A stretch of DNA of 64,000 nucleotides from Candidatus Latescibacterota bacterium (lineage in GTDB: Bacteria; Latescibacterota; UBA2968), in NCBI GenBank assembly GCA_965198115.1, contig OZ240241.1:2880001-2944000 (forward strand), in the 5' to 3' direction. The notes below the pieces were generated by a model. That model was not told where the DNA came from, ran no database searches, and was given only the letters and a program-made list of their open reading frames with translations. This document shows, in pieces, positions 4,680-37,533 of the stretch; positions within the stretch are counted from its first letter, which is position 1, and each line of letters starts with the position of its first letter. The translations under genes and the position numbers were made by a program.

Positions 4680-4730
4680 GTTAGAAGTTTAAAGGGGGTT
4701 GAAGCGGAGATAAGTGTTCGGGTAGACACC

Positions 4731-4890
4731 CGAACAATAACCTGATGTTCTTTCGCCATTTATAATTACTCCTAAGTAAACTTTATTTCACCAGTTCCGT
4801 AGGCTTGGTGGTAGGAAGTTCGATTGTTTCGGACGATACGCAAAGCCCTGGGCAAGCCAGGTTATCAGGACGGGAAGGCGCCGTCCGTTT
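4731..4890. repeat. 160-bp repeat X; inverted copy at 35226-35385 and partial copies at 35526-35569, 35939-35997, 4993-5009
   Basis: Direct comparison: 2 mismatches in 160 bp against the reverse complement of 35226-35385. Confidence 0.9.
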
Positions 4891-4892
4891 CC

Positions 4893-4950
4893 AACCGCTT
4901 TGAGCGGTTCACAAGTTTTCAAGCCTCCGGCTTTGCCGGAGGTCATGACT
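4893..4950 (+). mobile_element. Isolated IS200/IS605-like end (two hairpins), no transposase
   Basis: Hairpins aaccgct-ttg-agcggtt and cctccggc-ttt-gccggagg followed by tcatgact, resembling IS200-type right ends as I recall them. Confidence 0.5.
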
Positions 4951-5031
4951 CTCCCGCAGATCGTTCTCACGAAACACCACGTAAACTTTGGGCATTTATA
5001 ATTACTCCTTTAACCGTTTACGATTCAGGAG

Positions 5032-14290: not shown

Positions 14291-15831
14291 GAGTCAAGCT
14301 CCTCCAGATCACCGACCTGCATCTTTCGGATCGAGCCGACACGCCAGCAGCCGAGGCCCTCCGATGGGCGATCGATACGGCGAACACGCTGGTACCCGAT
14401 CTGGTCGCATTCACTGGAGATATGACGACCCACGGCACGGCCGAATCCGCCACCCGATTTCTCGAGCGGGCGGAGGGATTGACCGTTCCGTGGGTCTTCA
14501 CGCCCGGCAACGCGGAGTTGCGGTCGGACGGGGCGATGTCCGTCCTGGCGGAATGTGTGCTCCGCCAATCGATCGACGTCGGGGGCATCCGGTTCCTGTT
14601 GCCCGACACGTCGACGGGGCGGTTCACTCCCAAGGATCGCGCCTGGATGGATGCGGTCGATCGATCGGAGGATTGTCCGATCGTCCTCCTGACGCACTAT
14701 CCCACAGACACCTTGGACGTGGATTCACGCGAGTGGGTTACGGCGTGGTTGGCCGGTCGGCCTGTGGAGCTTTACCTGGCGGGTCACCGCCATTTCACTC
14801 GGTCGCGGTCGGTGGGTGGGTGCCAGGAGGTGATCACGCGTGGTCTGGATCCGGACAAGGCGTTCGGCGGTCCGCCAGGTATCAGTGTGTTCGAGCGAGG
14901 CGACGGTCGCTGGATCGAGGAGGCGATCGCGTGGCCCCACGGAAACGATCTTCTCCCGGCGGATACCGACCATTCGCCCGTTGGATGGTCGATTCACGGC
15001 GATCCGACCGACGCCGTCGTCGAAACGTATGACTTCGGGCTCAACGTGCTCGAGCTTCGGCCACGCGAGCCGGACTATGATTTCGACACAACGCTGTCAG
15101 AGCTGTCCCGTCTTCGCGAAGACCGACCGCTGTATCTGTCGTGGCACTTGCCCAGTCTGAACTGGGATGATGAAACCCACGCGGTACGCGGAGGGGACGA
15201 CATAAGCCGTCAGGTGGAACACGGACGACAGTGTGGCGTCGACGCATTCACGATCCACGTGCCCCAGGCTCGGGCGGACCGGATGTTCGACGGCGATGAA
15301 CCATCGGGTGTGTGGACGGCCTTCCTGGAGTACTACGATCGGCTGTTTCGCGACGCTGTGACGGACGGGATCCGCTTGTCGATCGAGAACGTACACAATG
15401 CGCCGGGAACCCCGCGAGATCGAGCGGAACGGAAGTTCGCGACTGAAATCGGAGAATACCTGGCCTGGATCGATTCGGTTCGATCCGAGATCGGATCGAT
15501 TGCGTGCGTCGGCGCCCACTTCGATGTCGGCCACGCCCGTAACAATGGCGATTTCGGAAATATCCAACCTCTGGGAGACTGGTATTCGCGCGTCGGATCG
15601 CTGGTCACGGGCTATCACATCCATCAGGTGCGGCCGCACGAGGATACGGGCAAGCTGACGAACCATCGCGACATCATCTCTCTGTATGACCGAACGATCA
15701 GTTACGCCGGGTTCCTCTACGCGTGGTCGAACCGACTCATCAACCGGGCACCCCTGTTCGTCGAGGTTCGTGACCCGGAGGAGCGACGCAGGACGACTCG
15801 GTTGTTGGAGCGACACTTTGCCGAAGGGTAG
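14287..15831 (+). CDS. Metallophosphoesterase fused to a xylose-isomerase-like TIM barrel
   Basis: ITDLH, FTGD, PGNAE, THYP, AGHRH; then SIENVH, HFDVGHA, YHIHQ, FVE. Confidence 0.75.
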   Translation: MRVKLLQITDLHLSDRADTPAAEALRWAIDTANTLVPDLVAFTGDMTTHGTAESATRFLERAEGLTVPWVFTPGNAELRSDGAMSVLAECVLRQSIDVGGIRFLLPDTSTGRFTPKDRAWMDAVDRSEDCPIVLLTHYPTDTLDVDSREWVTAWLAGRPVELYLAGHRHFTRSRSVGGCQEVITRGLDPDKAFGGPPGISVFERGDGRWIEEAIAWPHGNDLLPADTDHSPVGWSIHGDPTDAVVETYDFGLNVLELRPREPDYDFDTTLSELSRLREDRPLYLSWHLPSLNWDDETHAVRGGDDISRQVEHGRQCGVDAFTIHVPQARADRMFDGDEPSGVWTAFLEYYDRLFRDAVTDGIRLSIENVHNAPGTPRDRAERKFATEIGEYLAWIDSVRSEIGSIACVGAHFDVGHARNNGDFGNIQPLGDWYSRVGSLVTGYHIHQVRPHEDTGKLTNHRDIISLYDRTISYAGFLYAWSNRLINRAPLFVEVRDPEERRRTTRLLERHFAEG

Positions 15832-15893
15832 TGTACCCAGTTGCCGTGTTCGGTCGTGGTCGTATCAAACCAAGGTGCAATGAGGGATCGCAG

Positions 15894-16311
15894 ATGAGCG
15901 CGTTCAACCGGGCGAAGGACATCAAGGTGGGTGTGATCGGCTACGGCGGGGCATTCAACATGGGGCGTACGCACCTGACGGATATGCAAGCAGCGGGGAT
16001 GACGCCGGTGGCGGTCGCCGAGCTCGATGCGGAACGTTTGGAAGTCGCGACGGAGGAGTTTCCCGGCATTCAACCTTACCGTTCGGTGACCCGGATGCTC
16101 AACACGTCCGATGTGAACCTGGTCGTGTTGAGCACGCCGCACAACACGCACTCGAGGCTAGCGCTTCAGTGTCTGCGCGCTGGACGACACGTGATCAGCG
16201 AGAAGCCGCTGGCCATCAGAACGAGTGACTGCGACACGATGATTCGGGAGGCGAAAAAGCGAAGGTTGATGTTGACGACCTACCACAACCGGCACTGGGA
16301 CGGCTGTGTAC
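15894..16311 (+). pseudogene. Gfo/Idh/MocA oxidoreductase, N-terminal half truncated by IS3
   Basis: VGVIGYG, STPHNTH, HVISEKP, YHNRHWD, then IS3 sequence; remainder absent. Confidence 0.88.
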
Positions 16312-16379
16312 TGTCCAGCGCCCCGGGGTTTTCTTGGACACTCCGTTGACCTACAGTAGGTCGAAAAGGAGGGTCCACC

Positions 16380-16763
16380 ATGAACAAGGCTACCAGGGGA
16401 TCGGTTGGGGCGGAGCGAGCGAGAGCGAGCGGAGGCCCAGCCGATCCAAGCGCGACTTCGCAGGGTCGTTTCTCCGTGAAGAAGAAGGCCGAAGCCGTAT
16501 TACGTGTGATGCGTGGCGAGAGCCTCGACAGCGTCTCTCGCGATCTGGGAGTAACGGCAGCTAAATTGAGCGAGTGGCGCGATCAGTTCCACTCTGGCGC
16601 CCAGGCCGCACTACGCTCTCGTCCGAGCGACGAGCGTGACGAGAGGGTCAAGGACCTCCAGGCGAAGATTGGCGAGCTCACGATGGACAACGAGCTGCTG
16701 CAACAAAGAATCGATCGTCTGGAAGCCCGCCGCCCTTTGGCGCATCGGAGGTCGCGGAAATGA
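16380..16763 (+). CDS. IS3 family transposase OrfA
   Basis: HTH (KKAEAVLRVMRGES..VSRDLGV), LQAKIGELTMDNELL zipper. Confidence 0.9.
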   Translation: MNKATRGSVGAERARASGGPADPSATSQGRFSVKKKAEAVLRVMRGESLDSVSRDLGVTAAKLSEWRDQFHSGAQAALRSRPSDERDERVKDLQAKIGELTMDNELLQQRIDRLEARRPLAHRRSRK

Positions 16764-17653
16764 GTGAGGTCCTTTCGCCCTCCACGGGGAGACGCTACAG
16801 CATTAAACGCGTGTGCAAAGTGTTGCAGATACCCCGTTCCACGGTGCACAGCCAGCTTCGTCGTTCATCCGTAACCGATCTTCGGCAACCCCGGAAGCGA
16901 GGCCCGGTCGGAGCGGGTACCGATGAGGAATTGGTCTCCCTCATTCAGCAGGAGATCGACGCGTCACCCTTCCACGGCGAAGGATACCGCAAGATCTGGG
17001 CCAGGCTTCGCTTTCACGGTATGCGGACGTCAAAGGATCGGGTCCGCCGGTTGATGCGTGAAAACGGGCTCCAGGCGCGTCCAGGACGGCGTCGCGAACG
17101 ACGAGCCCACGATGGCACGATTACGACCGAGAAGCCCGATCAGATGTGGGGCACCGACCTGACTGTGACGCCCACGGTCGACGAGGGCAGAGCCTCCGTG
17201 TTTATCGCGATCGACCACTGCACGTGCGAGTGTGTGGGCATTCACGCCTCCAAGACGGCCAACCGCTTTGAGGCTCTCGAGCCGATCCGACAGGGCATCC
17301 GTGAACACTTCGGGGGCTTCGAAGAAAACATCGCCGAAGGACTGGAGCTCCGACACGATCACGGGTCACAATACGTCTCTGACGACTTCCAGAACGAGAT
17401 CGCATTCCTCGGCGTCCAAACATCGCCGAGTTTCGTGCGTGAGCCAGAAGGCAACGGATGCGCCGAGCGGTTCATCCGTACCCTCAAAGAAAACCTCCTG
17501 TGGGTTAGACACTTCAGTACCATCGAAGACCTGCGCCTCGCACTCCTTGAGTTTCGGGACAGATACAACCACAGGTGGATCATCGAACGTCACGGCTACA
17601 AGACGCCCGAACAGGCTAGAAACGCACTCACGGCAACTCGAAAGGCCGCCTGA
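16760..17653 (+). CDS. IS3 family transposase OrfB (rve integrase core)
   Basis: GYRKIWA, WGTD, HDHGSQY, NGCAERFIRTLKE. Confidence 0.93.
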   Translation: MSEVLSPSTGRRYSIKRVCKVLQIPRSTVHSQLRRSSVTDLRQPRKRGPVGAGTDEELVSLIQQEIDASPFHGEGYRKIWARLRFHGMRTSKDRVRRLMRENGLQARPGRRRERRAHDGTITTEKPDQMWGTDLTVTPTVDEGRASVFIAIDHCTCECVGIHASKTANRFEALEPIRQGIREHFGGFEENIAEGLELRHDHGSQYVSDDFQNEIAFLGVQTSPSFVREPEGNGCAERFIRTLKENLLWVRHFSTIEDLRLALLEFRDRYNHRWIIERHGYKTPEQARNALTATRKAA

Positions 17654-17693
17654 ATACACTCACCCGAGTGTCCAGACAACCGCGGGCTTTACA

Positions 17694-17783
17694 CTCCTTT
17701 CTTACGGGTACACGCTCTCATACGCGTACCCACAACGTAAGTTTGGAGCCCTTTAAGTTTCAACTACGATAGGCACCTCAACC
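17694..17783 (-). mobile_element. Mutated ~90-bp copy of the IS256-A left end
   Basis: Aligns to ~7715-7801 (ctcctttcttacgggta...gtttcaactacgataggcac) with clustered substitutions and indels. Confidence 0.85.
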
Positions 17784-18229
17784 GGTGTTCGGATGCAGAT
17801 CGATTGTACAGAACCGTTGAATGATCAGAAACAGCCGATCGGAACTCTCCAGCTTGGCGATCTGTTCTTCAAACCGAAAGTGTTCCAGGATGTTGAGCGC
17901 CCGGGTTGAGAACCCTTGATGTACTGCGTGAGATTGGCCGCGATGTCATCGGGATCGTCGCGGAGCGTCTCGAACGTAAATGGGCTTGTGTTGTGGAAAT
18001 CCAGTCCCGTGACGCGATTCAGGAGCGGCTCGATGCTGGTGACCTTGCCACCCTTCAGCTTTTCAGCCCGCTTGAGCACCCGGTCTTTCGTTGGCTGCAA
18101 AACGCAATCGAGGCGTCTCAACACCGTCAATGGCAGCATCACGTCTTTGTATTGATTCGGCCGGTAGGGCCCTCGCAGCAGATCCGCGACCGACCAGATA
18201 AAGCTGACTTTCTCACCCCAGTTGTTCAT
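17784..18229 (-). pseudogene. hsdM: Type I restriction-modification methyltransferase N-terminus, frameshifted and truncated
   Basis: FIWSVADLLRG.Y....Y..VMLPLTVLRRLDCVL..TK; frameshift near 17910 then ...LFLIIQRFCTIDLHP, cut by the IS256-A fragment. Confidence 0.88.
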
Positions 18230-18252
18230 TCTCGCTACACAGTTCTGTTTTC

Positions 18253-18582
18253 TTACTCCCAGCCCCCTGCCCAATGTCTGAACGCCTCGACCCATTCCCA
18301 ACCTTCGGGTGGCGGGTCGGGCACGTTCAGATCCAGAAGCCGAATACGCTGTTTCTCTTTCCCCCGCCGACAGACAGCCACGATGTCGTCACCGCCGGTG
18401 AGATCTACTTTATCGACTTTGACGGGCAGCCCAAGAACTTCGACTTCAAACGGAAAGGACACGTGTTCTTCAACGGCGTAGAACAGGGATGTTGCCTGTT
18501 CGGCCTCGCCGTAGGCATCTACGGTCCCTTCTTCTACCAATCGATCGAGTTCGGCTGCCGAAGGTTTGCGACGTTTACCCAT
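18253..18582 (-). CDS. CcbP-like (calcium-binding protein family) small protein
   Basis: VDAYGEAEQ...FPF..VLG..V.V...CRRG...DL...PPPEG.EWVEAFRHW family pattern. Confidence 0.6.
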   Translation of the reverse strand: MGKRRKPSAAELDRLVEEGTVDAYGEAEQATSLFYAVEEHVSFPFEVEVLGLPVKVDKVDLTGGDDIVAVCRRGKEKQRIRLLDLNVPDPPPEGWEWVEAFRHWAGGWE

Positions 18583-18595
18583 ATTTCGCCCCAGT

Positions 18596-21103
18596 CTATA
18601 TCGAACGCCCGAACGATTGAAGTGCTTCCTGGTCGTATTCAAGAGTAAGCTCGTTCAGTTCTTTTGCCGCCGCTTCGTCCGAATCAGCGACCTCGTATCT
18701 CATCGAGGCGTAGCCTTTCATTCGCTTTTGGAACATTCTCCCCAGCATCGGAACCTTGAGATCCACGTAGTCATAAATGCGATCATCCGCCTTCCCTCGA
18801 TAGGCGCGATGGAGCCTCCCGGCGTATTGGACGAGCGTACCTCTCCAGGCAATCGGCATCGCGAGGAAGAGCGTGTCCAGGCGGGGATCATCGAAGCCCT
18901 CACCGGTGAAACGTCCAGTCGAAATCACGAGCCGCTCTTCGTCGTCGGACAAATCGGCGAGTCGATCAAGAGCTTCGCGCCTCTTTTGGGTACCCATCCC
19001 GCCTTGTAGTACGACCAGGTTCGGGGTCATCCCCTCGAGTCGATCCGCGAGGAATTGCAGATGATCTCTTCTCTCAGTCAGAACCAGAGGAGATCGACCT
19101 TCCTCCAAAGCTCGGATGACGTCGTCCAGGATCATCTCATTCCGTTTCGGGTCCAGGGCAAGGCGCTGATAGATGTGTTGTATTCCCGTGCGAGTCCCAT
19201 CTACATCAATTGAGAAGGACGTCTCACGGACAAAGAGCCGATGTCGAAAAAAACCCCGTACAGCTTGATCCTTGCGATCGAAGGAATATCGGATCGGTCC
19301 AAGATAGTAGTGGAGAATCGGGTGGTGGCCGTCGCGCCGGATTGGAGTCGCCGTTAAACCCGTTAAATGCTTTGCCCTGACCTCTTTCAGAACTTTTTCA
19401 AAAGAGACAGCTGGAATATGATGACACTCGTCAACGATCACGTTGCCATACCTTCCAGCAAACTCAGACAGATCCTTCCTGCGCGCCAGACTTTGGATCA
19501 TCGCCACATCCACCAGCCCTGTCTGTTTTCGCCTCCCACCGCCAATCTGACCAATTTCCTTCACATCAAGGCCCAGAAAAACCGCAAGCTGTTCGCGCCA
19601 TTGATCCAGAAGCTGCGTTCGATGTACGAGAACTAACGTGGCTCGTTTCCGTTCCGCGATCAGGTGGATACCGACGACGGTCTTGCCCATCCCGGGCACT
19701 GCAACGAAGACTCCGATGTCAGATCCCAATATCACATCGGCAGCTCTTTTCTGAGCGGCGGTCAACTCTCCTTGAAAGGCAACATCGATCCGCTCACCTG
19801 CTGTCTGTCGATCTTCGATCCTAAGCGTAATGTCGTGAGTCGCAAGCAGCTCCTCAAGATCGAATAAACAGCCTCGGGGCAGCGCCACGGCTTCGGACAG
19901 ATCTTCAGCACAGGTGATGACTCGAGGAGTCAACGCGGTAGACAGTCGCAGAGATTGCCTTTTGTAGAACTCTGGGTTCTGGAAAGCCGCCAACCGTTTG
20001 ATCTGATTGATCAGGGAAGAGGGCAAACCCGACTTTTCTACAAGAACACCCCGATCCAGATCGGCCCGAACACTCTTGGGCAAAGGATCCTCAATCGAGA
20101 CGATCTGTGGCCCTTCTTGAGATCGCGCGGTCTTATCCCCGGGTTCATCGGACAAAGACGGGATCTGTACGCCGATAATTCGGCCTTCTTGGGATGCCAT
20201 CTCGGCCAACGCCTCAACCCGTGAACGTGGCAAACGGTCCAAGGAGGCGAGATAGCCCCATTGATCCTCGTAGGGCGCCCATCTGTTGTCGACAAACACT
20301 GTGTTCCCAGCGCGCCTCGCCTCATACTGAAGCGGCAGGGCGATCAGGTTCCCGAATCCGCCTCGCGGCATCGTATCCTGGCTGGGAAACAGACGGTCGT
20401 AGGAAGCCATCGATATCTGGTGTCTTTGCGTCATCGTCTGCGTGATCAAATAGCAGCCCATTTTTCTCGCTGACGCTGCGGATACACACTCCTCAAAGAA
20501 GAACCAGACGTGTGCCCCCTTCCCCGATCGAGATCGTTCAACCGCGGGAGTCATCCCAAGCTTGATAGAAGTCTCCAGAAAGGAGGAAACATCGTCTGCC
20601 CAGGCCTTGCCATCGAAATCAATCGCCAAAATAGCGCAGGTGTCGTCTTCCAGCAGCGGATAGACTCCAACGACGTGACGCCCCTGCAGATGGTCCTTGA
20701 TAACTTGGTCGGTCACGGGAAGGAATGCTTGATTCGGACACTCTCCGCACCTTACCCGAGGTTTATCGCAGACACCGTGCACCCATTCGTTACCGCACGC
20801 TGGGGCGTACCCAATCGATTGTTTCCGCTGGTTTCGCCAGAATTTGGGGAAGACATCCATCCGACCTCGAAAGAGCGAGCGAAAGAGGGTAATCTTCTCT
20901 TGGTTTGATCGGGGCGATGCTACTTTGTGGGGGAGGGCTTCGACAGTTGGGCCAGACAGGGAAAGCGAGGTCAACTTATCCTGTAGTTCTGCCAGACGTC
21001 CGACGAGTAAGCGTTTCTCGGCATCGATGTCCGCGAGACGGGCTTTTTCGTCACGGATCTTCTGGATCAGAGTGGCCTTGTCAAGGGAAGTCAACGGACA
21101 CAC
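18596..21103 (-). CDS. iee: AEP primase-polymerase fused to SF2 (DExH) helicase; IS-excision enhancer (IEE)/TOTE-primase homolog
   Basis: LFRGR.DV, C.NEW...C.KP...C.EC, AIDFD, ERSRSGKGAHVW, SYDRLFP.QD.MP.GGFGNLIALPLQ, AAF.NPEFY, GKT, DECHH, GLTATP.RRDG, GEGFD, QYAGRLHR. Confidence 0.85.
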   Translation of the reverse strand: MCPLTSLDKATLIQKIRDEKARLADIDAEKRLLVGRLAELQDKLTSLSLSGPTVEALPHKVASPRSNQEKITLFRSLFRGRMDVFPKFWRNQRKQSIGYAPACGNEWVHGVCDKPRVRCGECPNQAFLPVTDQVIKDHLQGRHVVGVYPLLEDDTCAILAIDFDGKAWADDVSSFLETSIKLGMTPAVERSRSGKGAHVWFFFEECVSAASARKMGCYLITQTMTQRHQISMASYDRLFPSQDTMPRGGFGNLIALPLQYEARRAGNTVFVDNRWAPYEDQWGYLASLDRLPRSRVEALAEMASQEGRIIGVQIPSLSDEPGDKTARSQEGPQIVSIEDPLPKSVRADLDRGVLVEKSGLPSSLINQIKRLAAFQNPEFYKRQSLRLSTALTPRVITCAEDLSEAVALPRGCLFDLEELLATHDITLRIEDRQTAGERIDVAFQGELTAAQKRAADVILGSDIGVFVAVPGMGKTVVGIHLIAERKRATLVLVHRTQLLDQWREQLAVFLGLDVKEIGQIGGGRRKQTGLVDVAMIQSLARRKDLSEFAGRYGNVIVDECHHIPAVSFEKVLKEVRAKHLTGLTATPIRRDGHHPILHYYLGPIRYSFDRKDQAVRGFFRHRLFVRETSFSIDVDGTRTGIQHIYQRLALDPKRNEMILDDVIRALEEGRSPLVLTERRDHLQFLADRLEGMTPNLVVLQGGMGTQKRREALDRLADLSDDEERLVISTGRFTGEGFDDPRLDTLFLAMPIAWRGTLVQYAGRLHRAYRGKADDRIYDYVDLKVPMLGRMFQKRMKGYASMRYEVADSDEAAAKELNELTLEYDQEALQSFGRSI

Positions 21104-21104
21104 C

Positions 21105-21230
21105 TATTCGGCAGGTTTCTCGCGGCGCTCCCTGACCTCTCGAAGCACATCCACGATCTCATCTCGAGTCAGATCCAACCTCACGCCCTCGACATCCAGC
21201 GGCGAGCTCGAGGGATTCGCCGTTCGCAGG
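21105..21230 (-). pseudogene. Possible C-terminal remnant of a Phd/YefM-type antitoxin
   Basis: Minus-strand translation SSPLDVEGVRLDLTRDEIVDVLREVRERR, with no start codon. Confidence 0.35.
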
Positions 21231-21546
21231 ATTGAACTCCTGCCCGTCACGTCTTCTGATCCGGACCTCTCCTTCCCGACGAGCCCGATCGAGCAGGGAT
21301 GCCAGGGTTTTGCCTTGCTTCTGAGTATGTGACAACAGTCATCGGTCAGCCTTCAAATGTGCCAGGCAATGAGCTCGCATCTGTGGCCAGTGCGTGTCCT
21401 GCCGTCGTCTAGAGGCAAAAATCCAGCGCCAGGACGGCCTGAGAAGGGTCTTTGACCGTTTCACCCGGTAAGCGACAGGTTTCAGTCGATGATCTCCTAG
21501 CGAGTTTGGACTTCAGGTCCGTTCATTGGTTGAGTTGCCTTCGATG

Positions 21547-22095
21547 TCAATCAGGGGGAGACCACCGCAAGACTCCCATCTTCCCAGGGTGTGCAGCTTG
21601 CGCCTTAGTATGCCACTCAAAACCGACTTCGACCGGCACCTTCAATTCGCGAGCAATCCAGAGGGTCGTCTCCCACGCCCTATGAGAATCGAGGCCCTGT
21701 ATGGACAGATCCAACTTCGGAATGTATTTGAATCCTCGAGAACTTTCGTTGCCCTCCAAAAGGTTGGCCCTTGACACCTGCTGCATCTTCTCGACTCCCA
21801 GGACCTCCGCCGCCTTGATGTGGGCAAATTTCACGAGTTCATTCCACTTGGGAGGCACCGCATCATTCCCGAACTTTGCCCGCAAGACCCTTGTATGGCG
21901 AAGATTCTCTGGGTGGTCCGGGTCCAACTCAATCCCGCTCCGCTGATTCCCAGTCGTCCTGGGCTGACCGTTCGCGTTCTGGTGATAAAAGTCCAACAGG
22001 CGGTCAATAACGGATGCCTCCGTATCAACGAAAGGCTCCGCAATCTTCTTCAATCGACCATACGTTTCATCCGAAATCTGAATCGTCTGTGTCAT
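21547..22095 (-). CDS. Hypothetical protein with SeqA/RHH-like N-terminus (resembles proteins annotated SepA family)
   Basis: MTQTIQISDETYGRLKKIAEPFVDT..SVIDRLLD; C-terminal SIQG...V.FEW..K..AAHPG. Confidence 0.5.
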   Translation of the reverse strand: MTQTIQISDETYGRLKKIAEPFVDTEASVIDRLLDFYHQNANGQPRTTGNQRSGIELDPDHPENLRHTRVLRAKFGNDAVPPKWNELVKFAHIKAAEVLGVEKMQQVSRANLLEGNESSRGFKYIPKLDLSIQGLDSHRAWETTLWIARELKVPVEVGFEWHTKAQAAHPGKMGVLRWSPPD

Positions 22096-22169
22096 CGCCG
22101 GCCCCCAGAATACTGATATTAATAATGTAGATTGATATATAAATATCATACTACATGAGATATGTGTAG

Positions 22170-22545
22170 ATGTCAACCCCTCAGACCCATTCCTATCGCA
22201 AACTCTTGCAAGTCGTCCAAGTTACCCTGACCGAAGGCCGGCTTCGTGCCGAACAGGCCGTCGAACGCGAGCGGTTGACGACGTATCACGAGGTGGGGCA
22301 CCAAATTCATCAACATCTGACAGAATCAGGCGAAGGCGGAACCTACGGCGAGCGGCTCTTTCTAAGCCTGGCTGGTGACCTCGAAATCGCCGAGCAACTC
22401 CTTCGTGATGCGGTAAACGTGTATCGTTGGCATCCTAATTTCCCACGCGCGTGGGAAATTAGGATGGACCCATTACCGAATCCTCCTTCGTCTTCCATCC
22501 AAAGATGATCGCGATCGACTCGAAAAGGAGGCTGCCGCGGGCGGA
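22170..22545 (+). pseudogene. DUF1016 (YhcG) N-terminal domain, frameshifted and truncated
   Basis: YHEVGHQI...YGERLFLSLA.DL; alternate frame gives LGWTHYRILL. Confidence 0.7.
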
Positions 22546-22582
22546 TGGACAAACGGCCCTTTCCCCTCGCATTATCTTGCTT

Positions 22583-22701
22583 CTGTCCAGTTGAGGCGTA
22601 CCCTAGCCTGGCGTCAGGGACGGGGCGCTGAGGCGTCAGAATAGAGTTCTCATTTGGATTGATGGACACATCCCGTCCAGGGTTATAGAGTTCTTCCTGA
22701 C
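22583..22701 (+). promoter_or_regulatory. Tn21/Tn501-type resolution (res) site
   Basis: gttgaggcgtaccctagcctggcgtcag...gcgtcagaataga...ggttatagagttcttcctgaca resembles the Tn21 res as I recall it, and lies directly before a tnpR start. Confidence 0.7.
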
Positions 22702-22724
22702 AGATTGGATTCAGCAGGGACGCC

Positions 22725-22787
22725 TTGCCCGATCAGCGCATCGGCTATGTCCGGGTGAGCAGCTTCGACCAGAACCCGGAACGCCAA
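22725..22787 (+). pseudogene. tnpR: First 21 codons of a Tn3-family resolvase
   Basis: TTG-PDQRIGYVRVSSFDQNPERQ. Confidence 0.85.
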
Positions 22788-22861
22788 GTTGAGTTGTGTC
22801 CAGGTTCGAGAAGGACGCCCATCCAGGGAGGCTGGAGACGTTGAAGAAGGAGACGATCGCA

Positions 22862-23467
22862 ATGATCGGCAGCCGCGCCTTTACTGCATTGATGGTGGGA
22901 TGGCTATTGACGAACGCCGTTCAGGCAGAGCCGCGGCCCGGCGACATCGCCGGCGTATATCCGTCGGCAGGGCCGGGTGACCGTACGTTGTACGCGATAG
23001 CGCGGGTGAACCCGGGAGCCGGTCCCGCGACGACGAGGTCCGGGGAGTCGATCATTCAGGTCTTCGTCACCGGCAGGGACCGCCGCGTCGAAGGGACTGC
23101 CAGTCACTACTTTGCGGTGCCGCGGGATGTATCCACGGGCGTGCGACTCGACGCGCTCCACTCGGCACCGGGTCCCAATCACTTTATCCAAATTGACGGC
23201 CGGGAGTACGCGCTCCAACGGATTATGGTCGGGGTACGGGAGGGCCACCTGCGTCTTGAAGGGGCGGTTCTGGTACGCACCGGCTTCTTACCAATGATAA
23301 TGCGTGGACGGATCGAGCTTCGGCTGGACTCGGCCCTGAACCCCGGCGGGACCGCAGACGAGATGACGGCCAAGGCGTTGGAAGACACGACACGGGCCGA
23401 CAAAATCAGTCGTGAAGGCTATGAGAAGGCGCTACGAGACTACCAAACAAGAAGAGCGCGAGAGTGA
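22862..23467 (+). CDS. Hypothetical exported protein
   Basis: AAGGAG RBS; signal peptide MIGSRAFTALMVGWLLTNAVQA. Confidence 0.6.
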   Translation: MIGSRAFTALMVGWLLTNAVQAEPRPGDIAGVYPSAGPGDRTLYAIARVNPGAGPATTRSGESIIQVFVTGRDRRVEGTASHYFAVPRDVSTGVRLDALHSAPGPNHFIQIDGREYALQRIMVGVREGHLRLEGAVLVRTGFLPMIMRGRIELRLDSALNPGGTADEMTAKALEDTTRADKISREGYEKALRDYQTRRARE

Positions 23468-23547
23468 ATGGGCCTTAGCGTACGATTTTTCCCGTTTCGT
23501 GAGGTGACCCCACCTCAACCCCCATAACAAAGCGCCCGGACGGTGCC

Positions 23548-23874
23548 GTGATGCTGCGCATGCCCTTCGAGTTTCCCGACGGAGATCGCTTCCCTATCCA
23601 CGTTTCGGAACTCGGGTCCGGTGGATTGCGCCTTTCCGACCAGGGCCATACGCTCATGCACATCAGTTACGATCACGACATTGATTCGTTCCTGGAAGGC
23701 ACCCGTGGCCAGCTCATCGAGCGCACCATGGCCGAGACCGGCCTTGAATGGGACGGAGACGCATTCTGCGTCGATACTCCAATCGATAGGCTTCCTGATG
23801 CGATCTTTCGTTTAGGTCAAGTGTTGACCAGGGTTTACGACCTGATTGCCCTTCCAAGTGTTGTTTTGTGTTAA
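23548..23874 (+). pseudogene. DUF1828-like domain fragment
   Basis: PF.FPDGD.F.I......LRLSD.GHTLM.IS pattern; both ends appear truncated. Confidence 0.55.
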
Positions 23875-24620
23875 GGGTCAGCCGAAGGAGTCCATAGCCC
23901 CCACCTTCCGTGACTCTGGCCACCGAAGTGTTGCTGCAAGTTTCTGAATTTGCCGTAGGGTGGTTATGTCCCTCTGCGTCTTCTCAAAAGCTTCCTTCGC
24001 GTGGTGCTCGACGCTGGCAAGACTCACGCGAAGATTCCTGATGATCGGATCGAGATTGTCCTCGGTGATCTCTGACTCGGAAAGAATAGTTGACGCCGGA
24101 CACGCTCTATCCACGTGCTTCTGCATAGCCTCTCTGTCCTTGATCTTCCCGCCGTCCGAAATCGGTCCCGAGACGTAGATCCCTCTCTCACGTCGATGCG
24201 TGTAGACCCCTTTCTGGGTGCGATGTTCGTAGTGTGAGACGACGTTCGGGGTGGTTTGATTATGGGCTCTGAGCGGGCTTAACTTTGCCCTTCTGTGCGG
24301 GTTTTCGAGGACCTCGACGAGGTTCCGAACCCAGAGGACGTCAAGACCGATCCTTGAGCCCGGTCCAGACTGCGGGATACCTCGCAGATCAAGTTACCGA
24401 CCTCCGCAAGGAGCGAAGCGTCGCGAGAGCCACTACCTCATCAATTGGGCAATGTGACGCATGCTTTTCATCAGTGATGTCGTCAACAACTGCTGATACG
24501 GGGCTTCGGGAGCTTTTTCCGCATAGAGCCTCCACGGGTCATACTGACCTTGATATACCTAAATAGTACCGTAAATTTAAGAAATAAATTCACTCCTATT
24601 GAGTATAGGAATATACCTAC

Positions 24621-25424
24621 ATGAAAGAAAGAACGACGATCGGCGATCGAGTAAGGAAGGCAAGGGAGCGGTCTGGTCTTGCCTCCTCGCAGGCAGCCTT
24701 GGCCAAGAGGCTAAGAGTGACACCGAAGCAAGTCTCTGTATGGGAAAACGCCACCAACCTTGAATGGAGAACCTTGGAGCGGATTGCGAGCGCGCTGGAG
24801 ACTACGCCAGAAGACATCGTCAATGAGGGGATTACGGCACGGTTCAGGACGGAGTTCGAGGAGCTGCTGGAGAGTCGTAAACGATCGGTCACGGCGCGTT
24901 GGCTTGACGGGATTTACCCAGATCCCGAAGGGAGAAAGATAAACCTGACTGAGAACAACCTACTGATAGCTCTGGACGCCGATTTGCTGGATTGGCCCCC
25001 CGAAGAGTCAGGTGGCTATTCTGACCGTATCGCTGGCGTCACCCGCCGATATTGCAGTCAGGTTCAGAAGGCAGCATGGTCCGATGCTCGCAAAGCCGAG
25101 ATGATCGAGACAATCGTCAGCATTGGCACTAAACACTTTGCGGAAGCAAGAGAGAGAGGGATTTCGCTCGATGCCATCACAGCCCACTTGGCGGCAGACA
25201 GGAAGGAAGAGACGAAGCAGCTAAGAGGATTGGTCTCCCGGATGACAGAAGACAAGGAGATGCTGGATGTCGTCGATTGGTTATCGAGTGATAAGCGGTA
25301 CGTGAGGCTTCTGAAGACTTTGGGCAACCTACCAAAGGATCTCAACGATGCGGACCTGGGAGTGATAGCTCAGGGGCTTCGCGGCATTCTTAGGATGATC
25401 AAGCAACTGAAACGGCCCAGCTAA
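24621..25424 (+). CDS. XRE-family HTH transcriptional regulator (phage-type repressor)
   Basis: IGDRVRKARE...SQAALAKRLRVTPKQVSVWEN...TLERIASALET. Confidence 0.85.
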   Translation: MKERTTIGDRVRKARERSGLASSQAALAKRLRVTPKQVSVWENATNLEWRTLERIASALETTPEDIVNEGITARFRTEFEELLESRKRSVTARWLDGIYPDPEGRKINLTENNLLIALDADLLDWPPEESGGYSDRIAGVTRRYCSQVQKAAWSDARKAEMIETIVSIGTKHFAEARERGISLDAITAHLAADRKEETKQLRGLVSRMTEDKEMLDVVDWLSSDKRYVRLLKTLGNLPKDLNDADLGVIAQGLRGILRMIKQLKRPS

Positions 25425-25463
25425 CCGGAAAGACATGCAACGCGACATCCACAGACCGAAATC

Positions 25464-25724
25464 GTGATGCCAAATTCAAGACCAAAACTCGATGAGTACA
25501 TGAAGGAGGAAGGAAACGCCCTCCTCGACGGCGAGAGACTCTTGGCTCCCGAGCAGGTGATGGCTCGTCTTGGGATCACAAAGAGGCAGCTCAACGAACT
25601 ACATAGGGGCGAGAATCCGCGGGGTCTGTATCTGCCGGCTTACAGGCTGGGGAAGAAGACAATCCGTTACCGGCTGAAGGATGTGCTGCGGCTGGAATGG
25701 GAGGCGATGAAGGAGTGTAGCTGA
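25464..25724 (+). CDS. Excisionase-like HTH protein
   Basis: LLAPEQVMARLGIT...LPAYRLGKKTIRYRLKDV; convergent with the integrase. Confidence 0.75.
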   Translation: MMPNSRPKLDEYMKEEGNALLDGERLLAPEQVMARLGITKRQLNELHRGENPRGLYLPAYRLGKKTIRYRLKDVLRLEWEAMKECS

Positions 25725-25799
25725 CCGAATTTAAGTCAGCTTGGATTACTATAGGTCGATGGGACGGCAACACTCAACTGGCTGCCGCAAAAGCCAGCG

Positions 25800-27029
25800 T
25801 CAATACGGAAGCCTATCCATTGGATGCTGCTCGGGTTCGATGTAGTGGAGATACTGCATCGTCGTGTTTAGGCTGGCGTGGCCCATCCGCTTCTGGAGCG
25901 TTGTAGGGTCTACGCCGTTGCGGAGGGCCATCGTCGCGTATGTGTGTCTGAGAGAGTAGACGGTAATTTCTGGATCGATTTTCTCCGCACGGATCATCAG
26001 TGAAAAGGCCTTTTGCGGTGCAGCTTGGGAAAGCGGCCTCTTCCGGTAGCCCTTTCTCCTCGAATCCCCACCAGGCATCACGAACGGCCCGAGCATTCCC
26101 TCATCCTCCTGCCGTTTACATTCCTCTTGAAGATAGTCGACAAAGCTCAGCTTGATATCTAACCGACGGGCTTCGCTATCTTTGGGCACCCAAGTCTCGC
26201 CTGTTTCCTCGCAAGCGGATCTGTGGATGTCGATTATTCCACCCCTCCGATCGATTGCATCCCATCTGAGCCAGCACATTTCTTCATCCCTCAGTCCCGC
26301 GTAGAGCCCAAGTCTGACTACTGTGGGCAGGCTGCCACTTATTCTCGTCCGATAGTTCAAGGAAGCGTCTAGGATGTATTTTGCTTCTTCTTCGGTGAGG
26401 ACCCTACGCTCCTTGGACTTCCTTGGCTGGCGAATCTTAACTTGCCGTGCCGGGTTCTCAGAAAGCATTCCGAGTCTAATGGCCTGGTCGAGCAAGAGTC
26501 TGAGTTTGGTGTGGTAGTGATAAACACTCCAATCCGAGTAGTTCCTCCTGAGCTGGGCTAAATAATTTGACACATCATGCGTGGTGAGCTCCCTGAGATC
26601 TGGATGATGGGTTCCGAGCCACTCCAATACCTGCCCGGCAAGACTTATGTGGTTCTTGTAAGACTTCCTTCCTACTCCACCTTTACCCACATCTGCTGCA
26701 TAGTCCTCATAGGCTCGCAGGATTTCTTGATAGCCCGTCTTCTGGAGGGTGGCTCTTGAGTTTCTCTTTGCAGTTTCCAGATATCCTCTGAAGACGGTGC
26801 CGGCTTCTTCCTTCTTTATCCAGCCCCTCTCAATCCACTCCTGAATGTCAGCTTCTACAGCCAGGCCCGTCCGAGCTGCGGCCTCCAATCTCCCAACTTG
26901 AGTCTTGAGGGCATTGGCTTCTGCCTTGAGCTTTGCATACTTGGCCTTCTTTACTGACTTACCATTGAGCTTCAAATAATAGGACACTCGCCAGTTGTTC
27001 CTGGCGGGGAATTTATGGACGGAAGCCAT
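25800..27029 (-). CDS. Tyrosine recombinase/integrase
   Basis: AGLRDEE, PK, YSLRHTYAT, MGHAS..TT..Y catalytic residues; adjacent to tRNA 3' end. Confidence 0.95.
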   Translation of the reverse strand: MASVHKFPARNNWRVSYYLKLNGKSVKKAKYAKLKAEANALKTQVGRLEAAARTGLAVEADIQEWIERGWIKKEEAGTVFRGYLETAKRNSRATLQKTGYQEILRAYEDYAADVGKGGVGRKSYKNHISLAGQVLEWLGTHHPDLRELTTHDVSNYLAQLRRNYSDWSVYHYHTKLRLLLDQAIRLGMLSENPARQVKIRQPRKSKERRVLTEEEAKYILDASLNYRTRISGSLPTVVRLGLYAGLRDEEMCWLRWDAIDRRGGIIDIHRSACEETGETWVPKDSEARRLDIKLSFVDYLQEECKRQEDEGMLGPFVMPGGDSRRKGYRKRPLSQAAPQKAFSLMIRAEKIDPEITVYSLRHTYATMALRNGVDPTTLQKRMGHASLNTTMQYLHYIEPEQHPMDRLPY

Positions 27030-27039
27030 CTTGAAATCC

Positions 27040-27075
27040 CTATGTAACCCTCTATGTAACCCTCTATGTAACCCT
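27040..27075. repeat. Three perfect tandem 12-bp repeats (ctatgtaaccct); probable integrase arm-type sites
   Basis: Seen directly; 10 bp upstream of the integrase start. Confidence 0.8.
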
Positions 27076-27212
27076 AAACAACACGTATAGATGGGTTTTC
27101 TAAAGTATCAATGGGTGCTAATGTGTATACCTTATTGTAGCCAATTGGTTAGTCGTGAGCAAGAGATCTGTGCTTGGCTTAGGTGGATAAACCTTTATAA
27201 TTGGGCAAAATT

Positions 27213-27248
27213 AACCCCGTAGAGCGTCTCAGCTTCTACGGGGGTTTT
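27213..27248 (-). terminator. Hairpin downstream of tRNA-Val
   Basis: aaccccgtaga...tctacgggggtt, followed on the minus strand by a T-run. Confidence 0.6.
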
Positions 27249-27324
27249 GGTGGGCGATACCGGACTCGAACCAGTGACTTCCTGCTTGTAGAGCAGGCGC
27301 CCAAACCAGCTGAGCTAATCACCC
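27248..27324 (-). tRNA. tRNA-Val(TAC), with non-canonical positions
   Basis: GGGTGAT/ATCGCCC acceptor + ACCA; CCTGC-TCTACAA-GCAGG anticodon arm; GGTTCGAGTCC T-arm. Confidence 0.88.
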
Positions 27325-35189: not shown

Positions 35190-36055
35190 GGATATAGCCA
35201 AAAATAAAGAAGTAATATTTCACGAAAACGGACGGCGCCTTCCCGTCCTGATAACCTAGCTTGCCCAGGGCTTTGCGTATCGTCCGAAACAATCGAACTT
35301 CCTACCACCAAGCCTACGGAACTGGTGAAATAAAGTTTACTTAGGAGTAATTATAAATGGCGAAAGAACTTCAGGTTATTGTTCGTGAGCAGATTCCGAA
35401 GAGGTTCCGCACACTCTAACCGCGCCCCCATGCCAGGAACCACGGCACCTTCACCCACTTCATCTCGTTGAGAGATCCAGATATAGCCAAAATAAAGAAG
35501 TATTTATGAACAAACCTTGCCCGCGCCAAGCCTACGGAACTGGTGAAATAAAGTTTACTTAGGAGTAATCGGGTTCCGTGCCGACTCTTAGCCCGTCCAA
35601 GTAGTCTGCCCATTCCTGCCCCAGCTGCGTCTTATTTGTCATAAGCCACGCATATTTAGGCGCCCTCTTTATCGACGGAAAGCTTTATTCTCCCATGTTC
35701 CCCAGACAAGACAGGGGGCCGTGGAAGGGTGACGCGTCGATCTCCTGCTGAATGAGGGAGACCAATTCCTCATCGGTACCCGCTCCGACCGGGCCTCGCT
35801 TCCGGGGTTGCCGAAGATCGGTTACGGATGAACGACGAAGCTGGCTGTGCACCGTGGAACGGGGTATCTGCAACACTTTGCACACGCGTTTAAGCTGTAG
35901 CGTCTCCCCGTGGAGGGCGAAAGGGTGCCATTCCCGCGCCAAGCCTACGGAACTGGTGAAATAAAGTTTACTTAGGAGTAATTATAAATGGCGAAAGTGG
36001 ACCCCGAACCCGAACAGGAAAAATAAAGAAGTATTTATGAACAAACCTTGAGCTC
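35190..36055. repeat. Patchwork of short duplicated segments (repeat X pieces, ISL3 end, IS3 piece, IS256-B tip)
   Basis: Most pieces match other places in this window; see findings. Confidence 0.85.
35718..35924 (-). mobile_element. Internal 207-bp fragment of the IS3 element
   Basis: Reverse complement of 16771-16978 with a 1-bp deletion. Confidence 0.9.
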
Positions 36056-36159
36056 TATGCTTGTCGCACAGTCGTCTGAGCGGAGTCAACCAGGACTTTT
36101 TTACCGGCCCATCGAACTGTACCAGGTAGTGGTGCTTGACCGCTGTAGGTATCCTTTCG

Positions 36160-37533
36160 GAGTTCAGGTCAATAGGTGTGTAAAAGAAATCAGGCGGCCA
36201 TCTTCCCGGCTTCGACCTGCGGTTCGGTTGAGTGTTTCTGATCGTAGACTTGTTGTAGCAAGTGTGGCGCGGTGAGTTTCCTGAATCGGCTCTCTGCGAC
36301 CTTGAGCGTACGCCAGATGAGAGTCGTGGCGTTCCTGACTTTCTTGAATCGCCTGGCGGCGTTTGTGCGAAGCCGAACGGAAGCAAAGGGGCTCTCGACG
36401 ACGTTCGTGGTTCTCAGGTGTTTCCAGTGTTCCTTCGGGAAGTCGTAGAACGTGACCATCCGATCCCAGTCTCTTTCGAGCGTCTCCACGGCGGCAGGGA
36501 ACTGTGAGCGATACCGTGCGGCAAAGCGTTTCCGGAGCTTCTCGGCCTCCTTTTTCGTGCCGGCATAGGGGATCTGGACGAGCAGTGCGCGGGCTTCAGC
36601 CTGTGCACGCTTGGCGACCTTGTCGAGCACGTTGAGGATCTTGTGGTTCCAGCACCGTTGTTGCCGGCTCTCTGGCCAGACCTGATCAACGGCCGCCCAG
36701 ATGCCCATATTCCCGTCCGCGGCGATCAGGACAGGATGTTCGAGCCCGCGATCCCGGAGATCCCGGAGCACCGTGAGCCAGGATTCTGTAGACTCTCGAT
36801 AACCGGGTTCTATCGCCAGGATCTCCTTGCTGCCGTCGCTCATCGCGCCGATCACGACCAGCAGACACGCCTTCTCGCGCTCGAGCCCGGCTTTGACGTA
36901 GATGCCATCAGCCCAGGCGTAGACCAGTTCGCGATTATCCAGACGCCTTTCTTTCCAGTCCTGGAAGTCGACCTCCCACTTCCCTCGAAGACGAGCGATC
37001 GAGGTCGGCGAAAGCGGCGCGCCATCACCGAGCAGCGCACGCAAAGACAACTCGAAGTCGCCCTGGGAGAGACCGTGGAGATAAAGGTCGGGAAGCAGAT
37101 CTCCAATGGCCCTGGTTCTCCGGGCGAACAGGGGGAGGATGCGGCTTTCAAACCGCTCTTCCAGACCACGAACCCGGGGACGCCGGACCTTGATCGTTCC
37201 GCAGCTCGTCGAGAGACGCCGGGGCTTGCCGTAGCCGTTCCTGTAGCCCCTGGAGCTATCGACCTCGGCTCGGCGCTCATACCACGACCGGCCCAAGAAC
37301 GCGGTCGCCTCCTCCTCCAGAATGGACTGGAACCGGCCCTGGATCTCTTCACGGATCCAATCGTCAACCGTCTCCCACGTCGGCATGGACTTCAATGGGG
37401 CTCTATGCGTATGTTCCTTCACGGCGATCCTCCTTCCCAACCGGGCCTCTCACCCGGTTTTGTGTGAATCAACTATCTCACGGGAAGGGTAGGGTCGCCC
37501 TTTCTCTTTTTCCACACCTTTTGATTATAGCTC
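36160..37533 (-). mobile_element. IS256-family element B, copy 2
   Basis: 8-bp TSD tcctttcg at 36152-36159 and 37534-37541. Confidence 0.95.
36190..37422 (-). CDS. IS256 family transposase
   Basis: Near-identical to 5062-6294. Confidence 0.95.
   Translation of the reverse strand: MKEHTHRAPLKSMPTWETVDDWIREEIQGRFQSILEEEATAFLGRSWYERRAEVDSSRGYRNGYGKPRRLSTSCGTIKVRRPRVRGLEERFESRILPLFARRTRAIGDLLPDLYLHGLSQGDFELSLRALLGDGAPLSPTSIARLRGKWEVDFQDWKERRLDNRELVYAWADGIYVKAGLEREKACLLVVIGAMSDGSKEILAIEPGYRESTESWLTVLRDLRDRGLEHPVLIAADGNMGIWAAVDQVWPESRQQRCWNHKILNVLDKVAKRAQAEARALLVQIPYAGTKKEAEKLRKRFAARYRSQFPAAVETLERDWDRMVTFYDFPKEHWKHLRTTNVVESPFASVRLRTNAARRFKKVRNATTLIWRTLKVAESRFRKLTAPHLLQQVYDQKHSTEPQVEAGKMAA

What the first reader, a model, noticed from the sequence alone, without database searches (positions are those of the whole stretch)
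18596..21103. Apparently intact IEE-type PrimPol-helicase in a region showing its predicted footprints
Seen: an 835-aa ORF with AEP motifs (DFD, SRSG.GAH, GNLIALP), a 4-Cys cluster and a full DExH helicase. It is uninterrupted while most island neighbours are fragments. Established: this architecture is that of the IS-excision enhancer of E. coli O157 (SpLE1 element). IEE promotes IS excision and IS-adjacent deletions and has error-prone polymerase and microhomology end-joining activity. My match is from recalled motifs, not an alignment. Also seen in this window: IS copies lacking TSDs beside truncated genes, mutated short copies of IS ends, and mosaic junctions. Inference: an IEE homolog in a distant, IS-rich lineage may work with resident transposases to write templated patchwork DNA at IS-end breaks, acting as a genome-scrambling system. 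The causal link is a hypothesis.
Basis: partly seen in the sequence, partly recalled or inferred. Interest (0 to 1): 0.85.

Follow-up and report, generated by a model that had tools for sequence, protein, structure and literature searches.

The report
Ordinary IEE homolog in IS-flooded genome
This intact gene is a common relative of the E. coli insertion-sequence excision enhancer (a polymerase fused to an ATP motor) on a decaying tRNA island, and the scars around it are likely ordinary damage from about 900 insertion-sequence pieces, not footprints of this enzyme.

Summary
The 835-aa ORF is real. It is 45% identical over 760 aa to E. coli Sakai IEE, with all ten tested active-site positions kept or family-typical. 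The family is very common, and this scan has reported it on other DNA. The gene is cargo of a decaying tRNA-Val integrative island.

The 'footprints' do not point to it. The TSD-less IS3 beside the truncated gene marks one end of a ~17-kb inversion between two IS copies. The 'mutated IS end' is an exact copy of a sister element's end. IS256 copies keep their TSD in 143 of 183 cases, against 29 of 41 in iee-negative relatives. Local duplications occur in 8 of 1186 IS flanks and 8 of 1200 control windows. Copy-out IS families are not more broken than others.

One patchwork (35200-36159) is in the assembly and stays unexplained. Its junctions lack the ≥4-bp microhomology IEE needs in vitro, and the genome also encodes LigD. 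Verdict: new member of a known family; scrambling hypothesis not supported.

The parts
18596..21103 (-). iee-family gene, 835 aa: Cys4 cluster + AEP (PF22548) + SF2 DECH ATPase
18253..18642 (-). CcbP-like small ORF (PF11535), conserved directly downstream of iee homologs
   Evidence: 24.5 bits, cut-off 21.5; 16 of 84 homolog loci; 60% identical to the G062 copy
17825..18301 (-). 5' fragment of a type I restriction-modification hsdM
21104..21340 (-). frameshifted remnant of a small gene upstream of iee; looks like a Phd/YefM antitoxin (label recalled, no family hit sought)
21547..22176 (-). uninterrupted ORF over the NCBIfam NF047386 cut-off (SepA family)
22170..22508 (+). DUF1016_N (YhcG) fragment
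23548..23874 (+). DUF1828 fragment
24621..25424 (+). XRE-type HTH regulator of the integration module
25464..25724 (+). small ORF beside the integrase, likely excisionase (inferred from position; no family hit)
25800..27029 (-). tyrosine integrase; module 24081-27324 has a 98-99% copy at genome 7.29 Mb
27248..27324 (-). tRNA-Val(TAC), island attachment site
   Evidence: the iee homolog of G062 sits between tRNA-Val(TAC) 3'-end repeats
16314..17693 (+). IS3-family element; its two 15-bp flanks are swapped with those of an inverted copy at genome 2877717-2879096 (inversion end)
15831..16313 (+). 5' part of a Gfo/Idh/MocA gene; the rest lies left of the partner IS, and both parts carry the DGCVL-coding target duplication
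17694..17783 (.). end of an IS256 sister element split by the IS3 insertion and inversion; not a mutated copy
35200..36159 (.). patchwork between ISL3 and IS256: repeated A+T-rich modules, a 103-bp ISL3 end, a 207-bp internal IS3 piece, a 31-bp repeat piece and 112 bp with no second copy in the genome
4681..5031 (.). second array of the same A+T-rich modules, with a 64-bp hairpin element present in about 50 copies, between IS630 and IS256

Best explanation
The ORF is an intact IEE-family AEP polymerase-SF2 ATPase fusion carried on a decaying integrative island at tRNA-Val, and it likely works like E. coli IEE if expressed, while the scars around it are likely the ordinary product of a recent IS explosion rather than of this enzyme. 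Shown: domain order, active-site residues, island anatomy, IS load (12.3% of the genome in 12 families), and the inversion that explains the local TSD loss and split gene. Inferred from E. coli IEE: an error-prone Mn2+-preferring polymerase, with an ATPase domain that holds DNA ends together, would pair ends or switch a primer at ≥4-bp microhomology after a copy-out transposase nicks. That would delete IS copies, mostly cleanly, rather than insert patchwork. Inferred for the scars: insertion of ISs into ISs, RecA recombination between near-identical copies and short-homology deletions in dispensable DNA. Three substitutions at near-invariant helicase positions suggest this copy may already be drifting.
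For: Family: 45% identity over 760 aa to ECs_1305. E. coli IEE's best hit in G000 is this gene (652 bits, next 79.7), and the AEP tree splits the IEE type from TPR-AEPs with 100/100 support. Y128, D142, D144, S171, G176, H178, D216, K451 and R735 map to identical residues; Q175 maps to K, as in 14 of 119 homologs.

Commonness: 8000 of 8000 scored candidates hit; 580 of 601 pattern matches confirmed in GTDB genomes.

Cargo context: 24 of 84 homolog loci have a tRNA within 6 kb, 10 of them with a repeated tRNA tail in the fetched stretch, and G062 adds one more. Neighbours are AbiE/TA systems, integrases and resolvases. Only 2 of 84 loci hit this genome's transposases.

Scars: reciprocal 15-bp flank swap and split gene; further reciprocal pairs for ISL3 and IS256; intact recA. 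TSD kept in 143/183 vs 29/41, Fisher p=0.31. Unexplained internal breaks 94 in 581 pieces (copy-out families) vs 54 in 337 (others), p=1.0. Local duplications 8/1186 vs 8/1200. IS1 activation alone gave inversions, deletions, nested ISs and complex rearrangements in E. coli, in a paper that never mentions IEE (PMC12065110, passages).
Against: No activity or expression was tested; IEE function is shown only for the E. coli protein. 4 of 13 measurable IS-internal junctions have ≥4 bp microhomology against 1.9% expected. That fits IEE-type joining, though also ordinary slippage. About 34 runs with two or more non-terminus junctions exist genome-wide. The 35200-36159 patch needs local duplication plus distant pieces, which simple deletion does not give. 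No iee-negative genome with a comparable IS load was available, and whole-genome mosaic counts could be made only for G000.
Confidence: 0.75

Rival explanations
1. One reading: the IEE homolog acts with resident copy-out transposases and writes templated patchwork at IS-end breaks across the genome.
For: Active-site residues intact. Hundreds of ISL3, IS256 and IS3 copies are present, families listed as circle-forming by Chandler et al.. One multi-piece patch lies between ISL3 and IS256. Microhomology ≥4 bp in 4 of 13 IS-internal junctions.
Against: No enrichment at IS flanks or in copy-out families. TSD loss as in iee-negative relatives. The patch junctions overlap by -1, 0, -2 and -8 bp, while IEE did not extend 0- or 2-nt substrates in vitro (PMC9943667 section 18). 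The outcomes described for IEE are excision and deletion. G038 is iee+ with 0 IS256 and 1 ISL3 match.
Confidence: 0.07
2. The 35200-36159 patch was made by another end-joining route, for example the genome's own LigD capturing fragments at a transposon-made double-strand break, or by successive duplication and deletion.
For: A 778-aa LigD with polymerase, phosphoesterase and ligase domains, each over its cut-off, is encoded at genome 5.92 Mb. Blunt or non-templated junctions fit NHEJ (established knowledge). Cut-and-paste IS630 copies are abundant.
Against: No Ku was found in this complete genome. This is one event, with no way to assign the enzyme.
Confidence: 0.3
3. The patch is partly an assembly or amplification artefact in a repeat-dense region.
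For: The region is built of short repeats between two high-copy ISs. A contig of a second sample (X3) joins 35307 to 35939 without the 631-bp middle.
Against: A contig of X1 crosses the patch-specific junction at 35519/35520 at a depth like its flanks (30 and 36 letters on either side, so borderline). The X3 joint shares 59 letters on both sides and may itself be a collapse through the repeat.
Confidence: 0.15
4. This copy is an incipient pseudogene: the frame is open but the ATPase half is no longer under selection.
For: 7 deviations at 248 columns ≥95% conserved; the median is 2, and only 2 of 119 homologs have as many. P469V, V774D and G802R are at columns conserved in 117-118 of 118. 13 vs 5 listed changes at ≥80% columns against sister P0003 (13 vs 4 counted, binomial p=0.049). 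The gene upstream is frameshifted.
Against: All catalytic residues are kept. Total lineage-specific changes are equal (29 vs 24, p=0.58). The homolog set was chosen by closeness to this protein. In E. coli IEE, end joining does not need ATP hydrolysis.
Confidence: 0.25
5. The family's main selected role is defence or conflict with mobile DNA on genomic islets, and IS excision is a by-product.
For: Neighbours of 84 homologs are AbiE, TA, methylase and integrase genes, with no conserved transposase. Here it precedes an hsdM. Pfam files the domain under TOTE conflict systems.
Against: Islets collect all kinds of cargo. No anti-phage test is known to me from the searches run.
Confidence: 0.25

Closest known systems
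IEE, IS-excision enhancer of E. coli O157:H7 Sakai (ECs_1305, NP_309332.1; Z1568-like AEP + SF2; Calvo et al. 2023, PMC9943667; Chandler et al., 10.1101/2023.06.07.543989)
   Same: Full-length collinear homolog (45% over 760 aa); same four Cys, AEP motifs A/B/C, Walker A Lys and Arg finger; carried on an integrative element near its integrase.
   Different: 49 aa longer (acidic C-tail, longer N-terminal coil); P469V, V774D and G802R at near-invariant sites; followed by a CcbP-like gene and an hsdM fragment instead of SpLE1 cargo; resident ISs are mostly ISL3, IS256, IS630, ISAzo13, IS1380 and IS1182; activity untested.
Pfam PF22548 AEP-TOTE, including TPR-AEP / CRISPR-associated PrimPol (PDB 7NQD-7NQF; NF040561)
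   Same: Same AEP domain family: 313.7 bits, weak hits to 7NQD/7NQF.
   Different: No TPR domain, fused to SF2; 97.5 bits against the NF040561 cut-off of 200; the TPR-AEPs of relatives are 26-28% identical and form a separate clade.
IS expansion with IS-IS recombination (e.g. laboratory IS1 activation, PMC12065110)
   Same: Near-identical IS copies (about 99.5%), nested insertions, inversions with swapped target duplications, split genes.
   Different: Natural genome with 12 high-copy families and a private set of A+T-rich modules found in none of 40 relatives.

Membership tests
IEE (Z1568-like AEP-SF2 fusion) | N-terminal AEP domain of the PF22548 type fused to a C-terminal SF2 domain, about 790-840 aa | tested here: met
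IEE (Z1568-like AEP-SF2 fusion) | AEP catalytic residues D142, D144, H178, D216 and Y128, S171, G176 (as listed in PMC9943667 section 15) | tested here: met
   D162, D164, H198, D236, Y148, S191, G196
IEE (Z1568-like AEP-SF2 fusion) | SF2 Walker A K451, DExH, arginine finger R735 | tested here: met
   K474, DECH 558, R763; but P469V, V774D and G802R at near-invariant columns
IEE (Z1568-like AEP-SF2 fusion) | Orthology: best match of E. coli IEE in the genome and grouping with it in a tree | tested here: met
   (652 bits vs 79.7; split from TPR-AEPs 100/100; midpoint root, 26 rows)
IEE (Z1568-like AEP-SF2 fusion) | Located on an integrative element | tested here: met
   tRNA-Val, integrase and XRE gene 3.5-6 kb upstream; far att site not found
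IEE (Z1568-like AEP-SF2 fusion) | Transposase-dependent stimulation of IS excision; polymerase, ATPase and MMEJ activity | not testable with these tools
   needs bench assays
IEE-driven genome scrambling (proposed) | Excess TSD loss, breaks or patchwork at copy-out IS ends over controls | tested here: not met
IEE-driven genome scrambling (proposed) | Patch junctions with ≥4 bp microhomology | tested here: not met
   four patch-specific junctions: -1, 0, -2, -8 bp; IS-internal deletions elsewhere 4 of 13
TPR-AEP / CRISPR-associated PrimPol (TOTE proper) | TPR domain; NF040561 above cut-off | tested here: not met

The most novel reading that the evidence does not exclude
In a genome flooded with ISL3, IS256 and IS3 copies, the IEE homolog, possibly with its conserved small CcbP-like partner, occasionally template-switches during copy-out transposition. 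It would stitch local and distant 30-200-bp pieces into IS-flank patchworks such as 35200-36159, a bacterial counterpart of templated-insertion repair.
Probability: 0.07. Interest if true: 0.75.

Novelty: new member of a known kind. Interest (0 to 1): 0.2.

Why it matters
As it stands the gene is one more member of a very common, partly characterised family. Its modest value is as a test case. The genome holds hundreds of ISL3 and IS256 copies, two families predicted to respond to IEE because they form circles but not among those reported as tested in the review read here. It also carries a conserved downstream small gene not discussed in the papers read. If the scrambling model were true, it would link a known enzyme to templated insertions in bacteria, but the controls run here do not favour it.

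Tried and rejected
TSD loss as an IEE footprint: rejected (143/183 vs 29/41). With exact matches only, G000 gives 132/183 plus one offset. Of 60 fetched relative loci I dropped 10 G036 ISL3 copies whose ends could not be defined, 6 G017 copies with a single sister and 5 loci with no sister.

'Mutated IS ends': rejected.

Parent element of the A+T-rich modules: none found. No exact match of one module in GTDB contigs or IMG/VR; only the 64-bp hairpin piece matched in 40 relatives; Rfam found only the tRNA; the small ORFs at the RBS-ATG motif are 9-41 aa with no common frame. No reverse transcriptase and no Ku in the genome.

Runs: no contig of X1, X2 or X3 covered 35557-35667. X2 also lacked cover on flanking DNA that X1 covers, so the hole proves nothing. 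The X1 contig over iee has depth 7.4, against 18-22 for contigs at 35200-36187; depth is no share of cells, so a subpopulation island is only a guess. RNA runs X11 and X14 laid nothing on the gene; their shares are small, so this is no evidence on expression.

Other: no far att site of the island was found. No repeat patchwork in 20 kb around three other iee genes of the class. No structure model was obtained, so the effect of the three substitutions is unmodelled. Literature searches for templated insertions at bacterial ISs (1 irrelevant hit), TOTE, long IS3 target duplications and CcbP in defence islands found nothing relevant in the held library. Supplements were not read.

Full report
OBSERVATION. 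The ORF at 18596-21103 is on the minus strand, 835 aa, without a stop. Pfam gives AEP-TOTE PF22548 at residues 69-298 (313.7 bits, cut-off 27) and ResIII/DEAD/Helicase_C behind it. A 4707-nt contig of run X1, which may be the source sample, matches 17790-22460 with no difference. The window lies in a single-contig genome of 8.43 Mb, which has one copy of the gene.

FAMILY. I fetched the annotated E. coli Sakai iee, ECs_1305. The two proteins align at 45% over 760 aa. In an alignment with 119 homologs, the E. coli residues that Calvo et al. name (PMC9943667, section 15) map to Y148, D162, D164, S191, G196, H198, D236, K474 and R763. Q175 maps to K195, as in 14 homologs, and the four cysteines are conserved in 118 of 119. 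E. coli IEE finds this gene as its best hit in the genome (652 bits, next 79.7). A 26-row AEP tree separates the IEE type from the TPR-AEP PrimPols of relatives with full support. In the host's class it is patchy, 5 of 132 genomes, which fits horizontal gain. This scan has reported IEE homologs on other DNA several times.

SIGNS OF DRIFT. The protein departs from 7 of 248 columns that are ≥95% conserved; the median is 2 and only 2 of 119 homologs reach 7. P469V (motif I), V774D and G802R are at columns fixed in 117-118 of 118. Against its 84%-identical sister P0003 it has more changes at conserved columns (13 vs 4 counted, p=0.049) but not overall (29 vs 24). This is a hint, not proof, of relaxed selection.

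CONTEXT. The gene lies on an island anchored at tRNA-Val(TAC) 27248-27324, with an integrase and an XRE regulator. That module has a 98-99% copy at 7.29 Mb. The cargo is part intact (SepA-family and CcbP-like ORFs) and part broken (hsdM, DUF1016_N, DUF1828, an antitoxin-like remnant). Among 84 homolog loci, the CcbP-like gene follows iee directly in 16, and 24 have a tRNA within 6 kb, 10 of them with a repeated tRNA tail. The common neighbours are AbiE/TA systems, integrases and resolvases. In G062, of the same class, iee and the CcbP-like gene sit in a 4.7-kb islet between tRNA-Val(TAC) 3'-end repeats. Only 2 of 84 loci hit this genome's transposases.

IS LOAD. Twelve IS families cover 12.3% of the genome in 937 pieces, with full copies about 99.5% identical. 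They include ISL3, IS256, IS630, IS3, IS1380, ISAzo13 and IS1182. First-look candidates were 318 for IS256 and 291 for ISL3, against at most 30 and 13 in 40 relatives. G038 carries iee with 0 and 1 matches.

FOOTPRINT 1, MISSING TSDs. ISL3 keeps a duplication in 179 of 221 full copies and IS256 in 143 of 183, allowing one mismatch or a small offset. In six iee-negative relatives, IS256 keeps it in 29 of 41 copies (dropped rows are listed under Tried and rejected), Fisher p=0.31. The IS3 element at 16314-17693 has its two 15-bp flanks swapped with an inverted copy at genome 2877717-2879096, so the ~17 kb between them is inverted. The 'truncated' oxidoreductase gene continues beyond the partner, and both parts carry the duplicated DGCVL codons. 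Other reciprocal pairs exist, and recA is intact.

FOOTPRINT 2, MUTATED IS ENDS. 17694-17783 is identical to a sister IS256 end at 7132652-7132741, and its continuation lies at the other inversion end. It only looked mutated against the wrong subfamily.

FOOTPRINT 3, MOSAICS. Two arrays of A+T-rich modules lie at 4681-5031 and 35200-36159. Related pieces occur at about ten places in the genome and were not found in 40 relatives, GTDB contigs or IMG/VR. The second array holds local repeats, an ISL3 end, an internal IS3 piece and 112 bp without a donor. It is the only multi-piece case: short local duplications occur in 8 of 1186 IS flanks and 8 of 1200 windows far from ISs. Unexplained internal breaks are equally frequent in the circle-forming families that Chandler et al. 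list (94 in 581 pieces) and in the others (54 in 337). Four patch-specific junctions overlap by -1, 0, -2 and -8 bp, whereas IEE extended substrates with 4 and 6 nt of homology but not 0 or 2 (PMC9943667, section 18). Against my reading, 4 of 13 IS-internal junctions have ≥4 bp of microhomology where 1.9% is expected, and 34 runs with several non-terminus junctions exist genome-wide. These fit IEE-type joining as well as ordinary slippage. The genome encodes a full LigD but no Ku. Contigs of public runs neither prove nor remove the patch: X1 crosses one patch junction, and X3 skips the middle through a 59-bp repeat.

MECHANISM. By homology the protein likely acts as E. coli IEE does: an error-prone polymerase with a DNA-dependent ATPase that does not unwind, pairing ends or switching a primer at short homology after a transposase nick, and so deleting the IS. 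The products described are excisions and deletions, not insertions. The scars are sufficiently explained by nested insertion, recombination between copies and deletion, as seen after IS1 activation in E. coli (PMC12065110, passages, no mention of IEE).

PAPERS SEEN. Chandler et al. bioRxiv 2023: parts 1-4 of 5 of the text. PMC9943667: abstract, sections 15, 18 and the first part of 19. PMC8860574 and PMC12065110: passages. Kusumoto 2011: only as cited. No supplements.

VERDICT. New member of a known family on an ordinary island. The genome-scrambling link is not supported (about 7%). One odd patchwork remains open. Interest 0.2.

Noticed in passing
window 16314-17693 and 14 other full copies in G000: Two-ORF IS3-family element whose target duplication is 13-15 bp (exact in 9 of 15 full copies, swapped between partners in 4 more) and whose ends are asymmetric, one lacking the terminal TG.
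   Followed up: partly
window 18253-18642: CcbP-like small gene directly downstream of iee in 16 of 84 homolog loci; possible partner, not discussed in the papers read.
   Followed up: partly
window 4681-5031, 35200-36159; genome 105.5, 120.7, 302.5, 600.2, 1344.6, 3946.9, 5682.0, 7767.5, 7829.9 kb: Private family of A+T-rich modules (an RBS-ATG motif, a 22-bp hairpin in an ~80-bp CTAG-flanked unit, an AAAATAAA ISL3 hotspot) recombined in different orders; origin unknown.
   Followed up: partly
window 24081-27324; genome 7290888-7295500: Integrase module and tRNA-Val(TAC) are duplicated; the window's tRNA differs in its 5' half, and tRNA tails also lie at 7128698 and 7724732.
   Followed up: partly
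genome 2870558-2872531 (L185), about 7.5 kb left of the window: Array of 20 tRNA genes on one strand, likely of mobile origin.
   Followed up: no
window 4887-4950: 64-bp double-hairpin element in about 50 copies, resembling IS200/IS605 ends (label recalled); also in three relatives.
   Followed up: no
window 22552-23521: Stretch with a resolvase-like 5' remnant (label recalled), matched by very many contigs in several runs, with a 769-bp copy at genome 5.66 Mb.
   Followed up: no
L174:1408-3744 (genome 5.92 Mb): Full LigD in a genome where no Ku was found; a LigD polymerase domain above cut-off occurs in 6 of 41 genomes searched.
   Followed up: partly
whole genome G000: Extreme IS load (12.3%, 937 pieces) against its relatives, and 8.4 Mb against 3.6-6.5 Mb.
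   Followed up: partly
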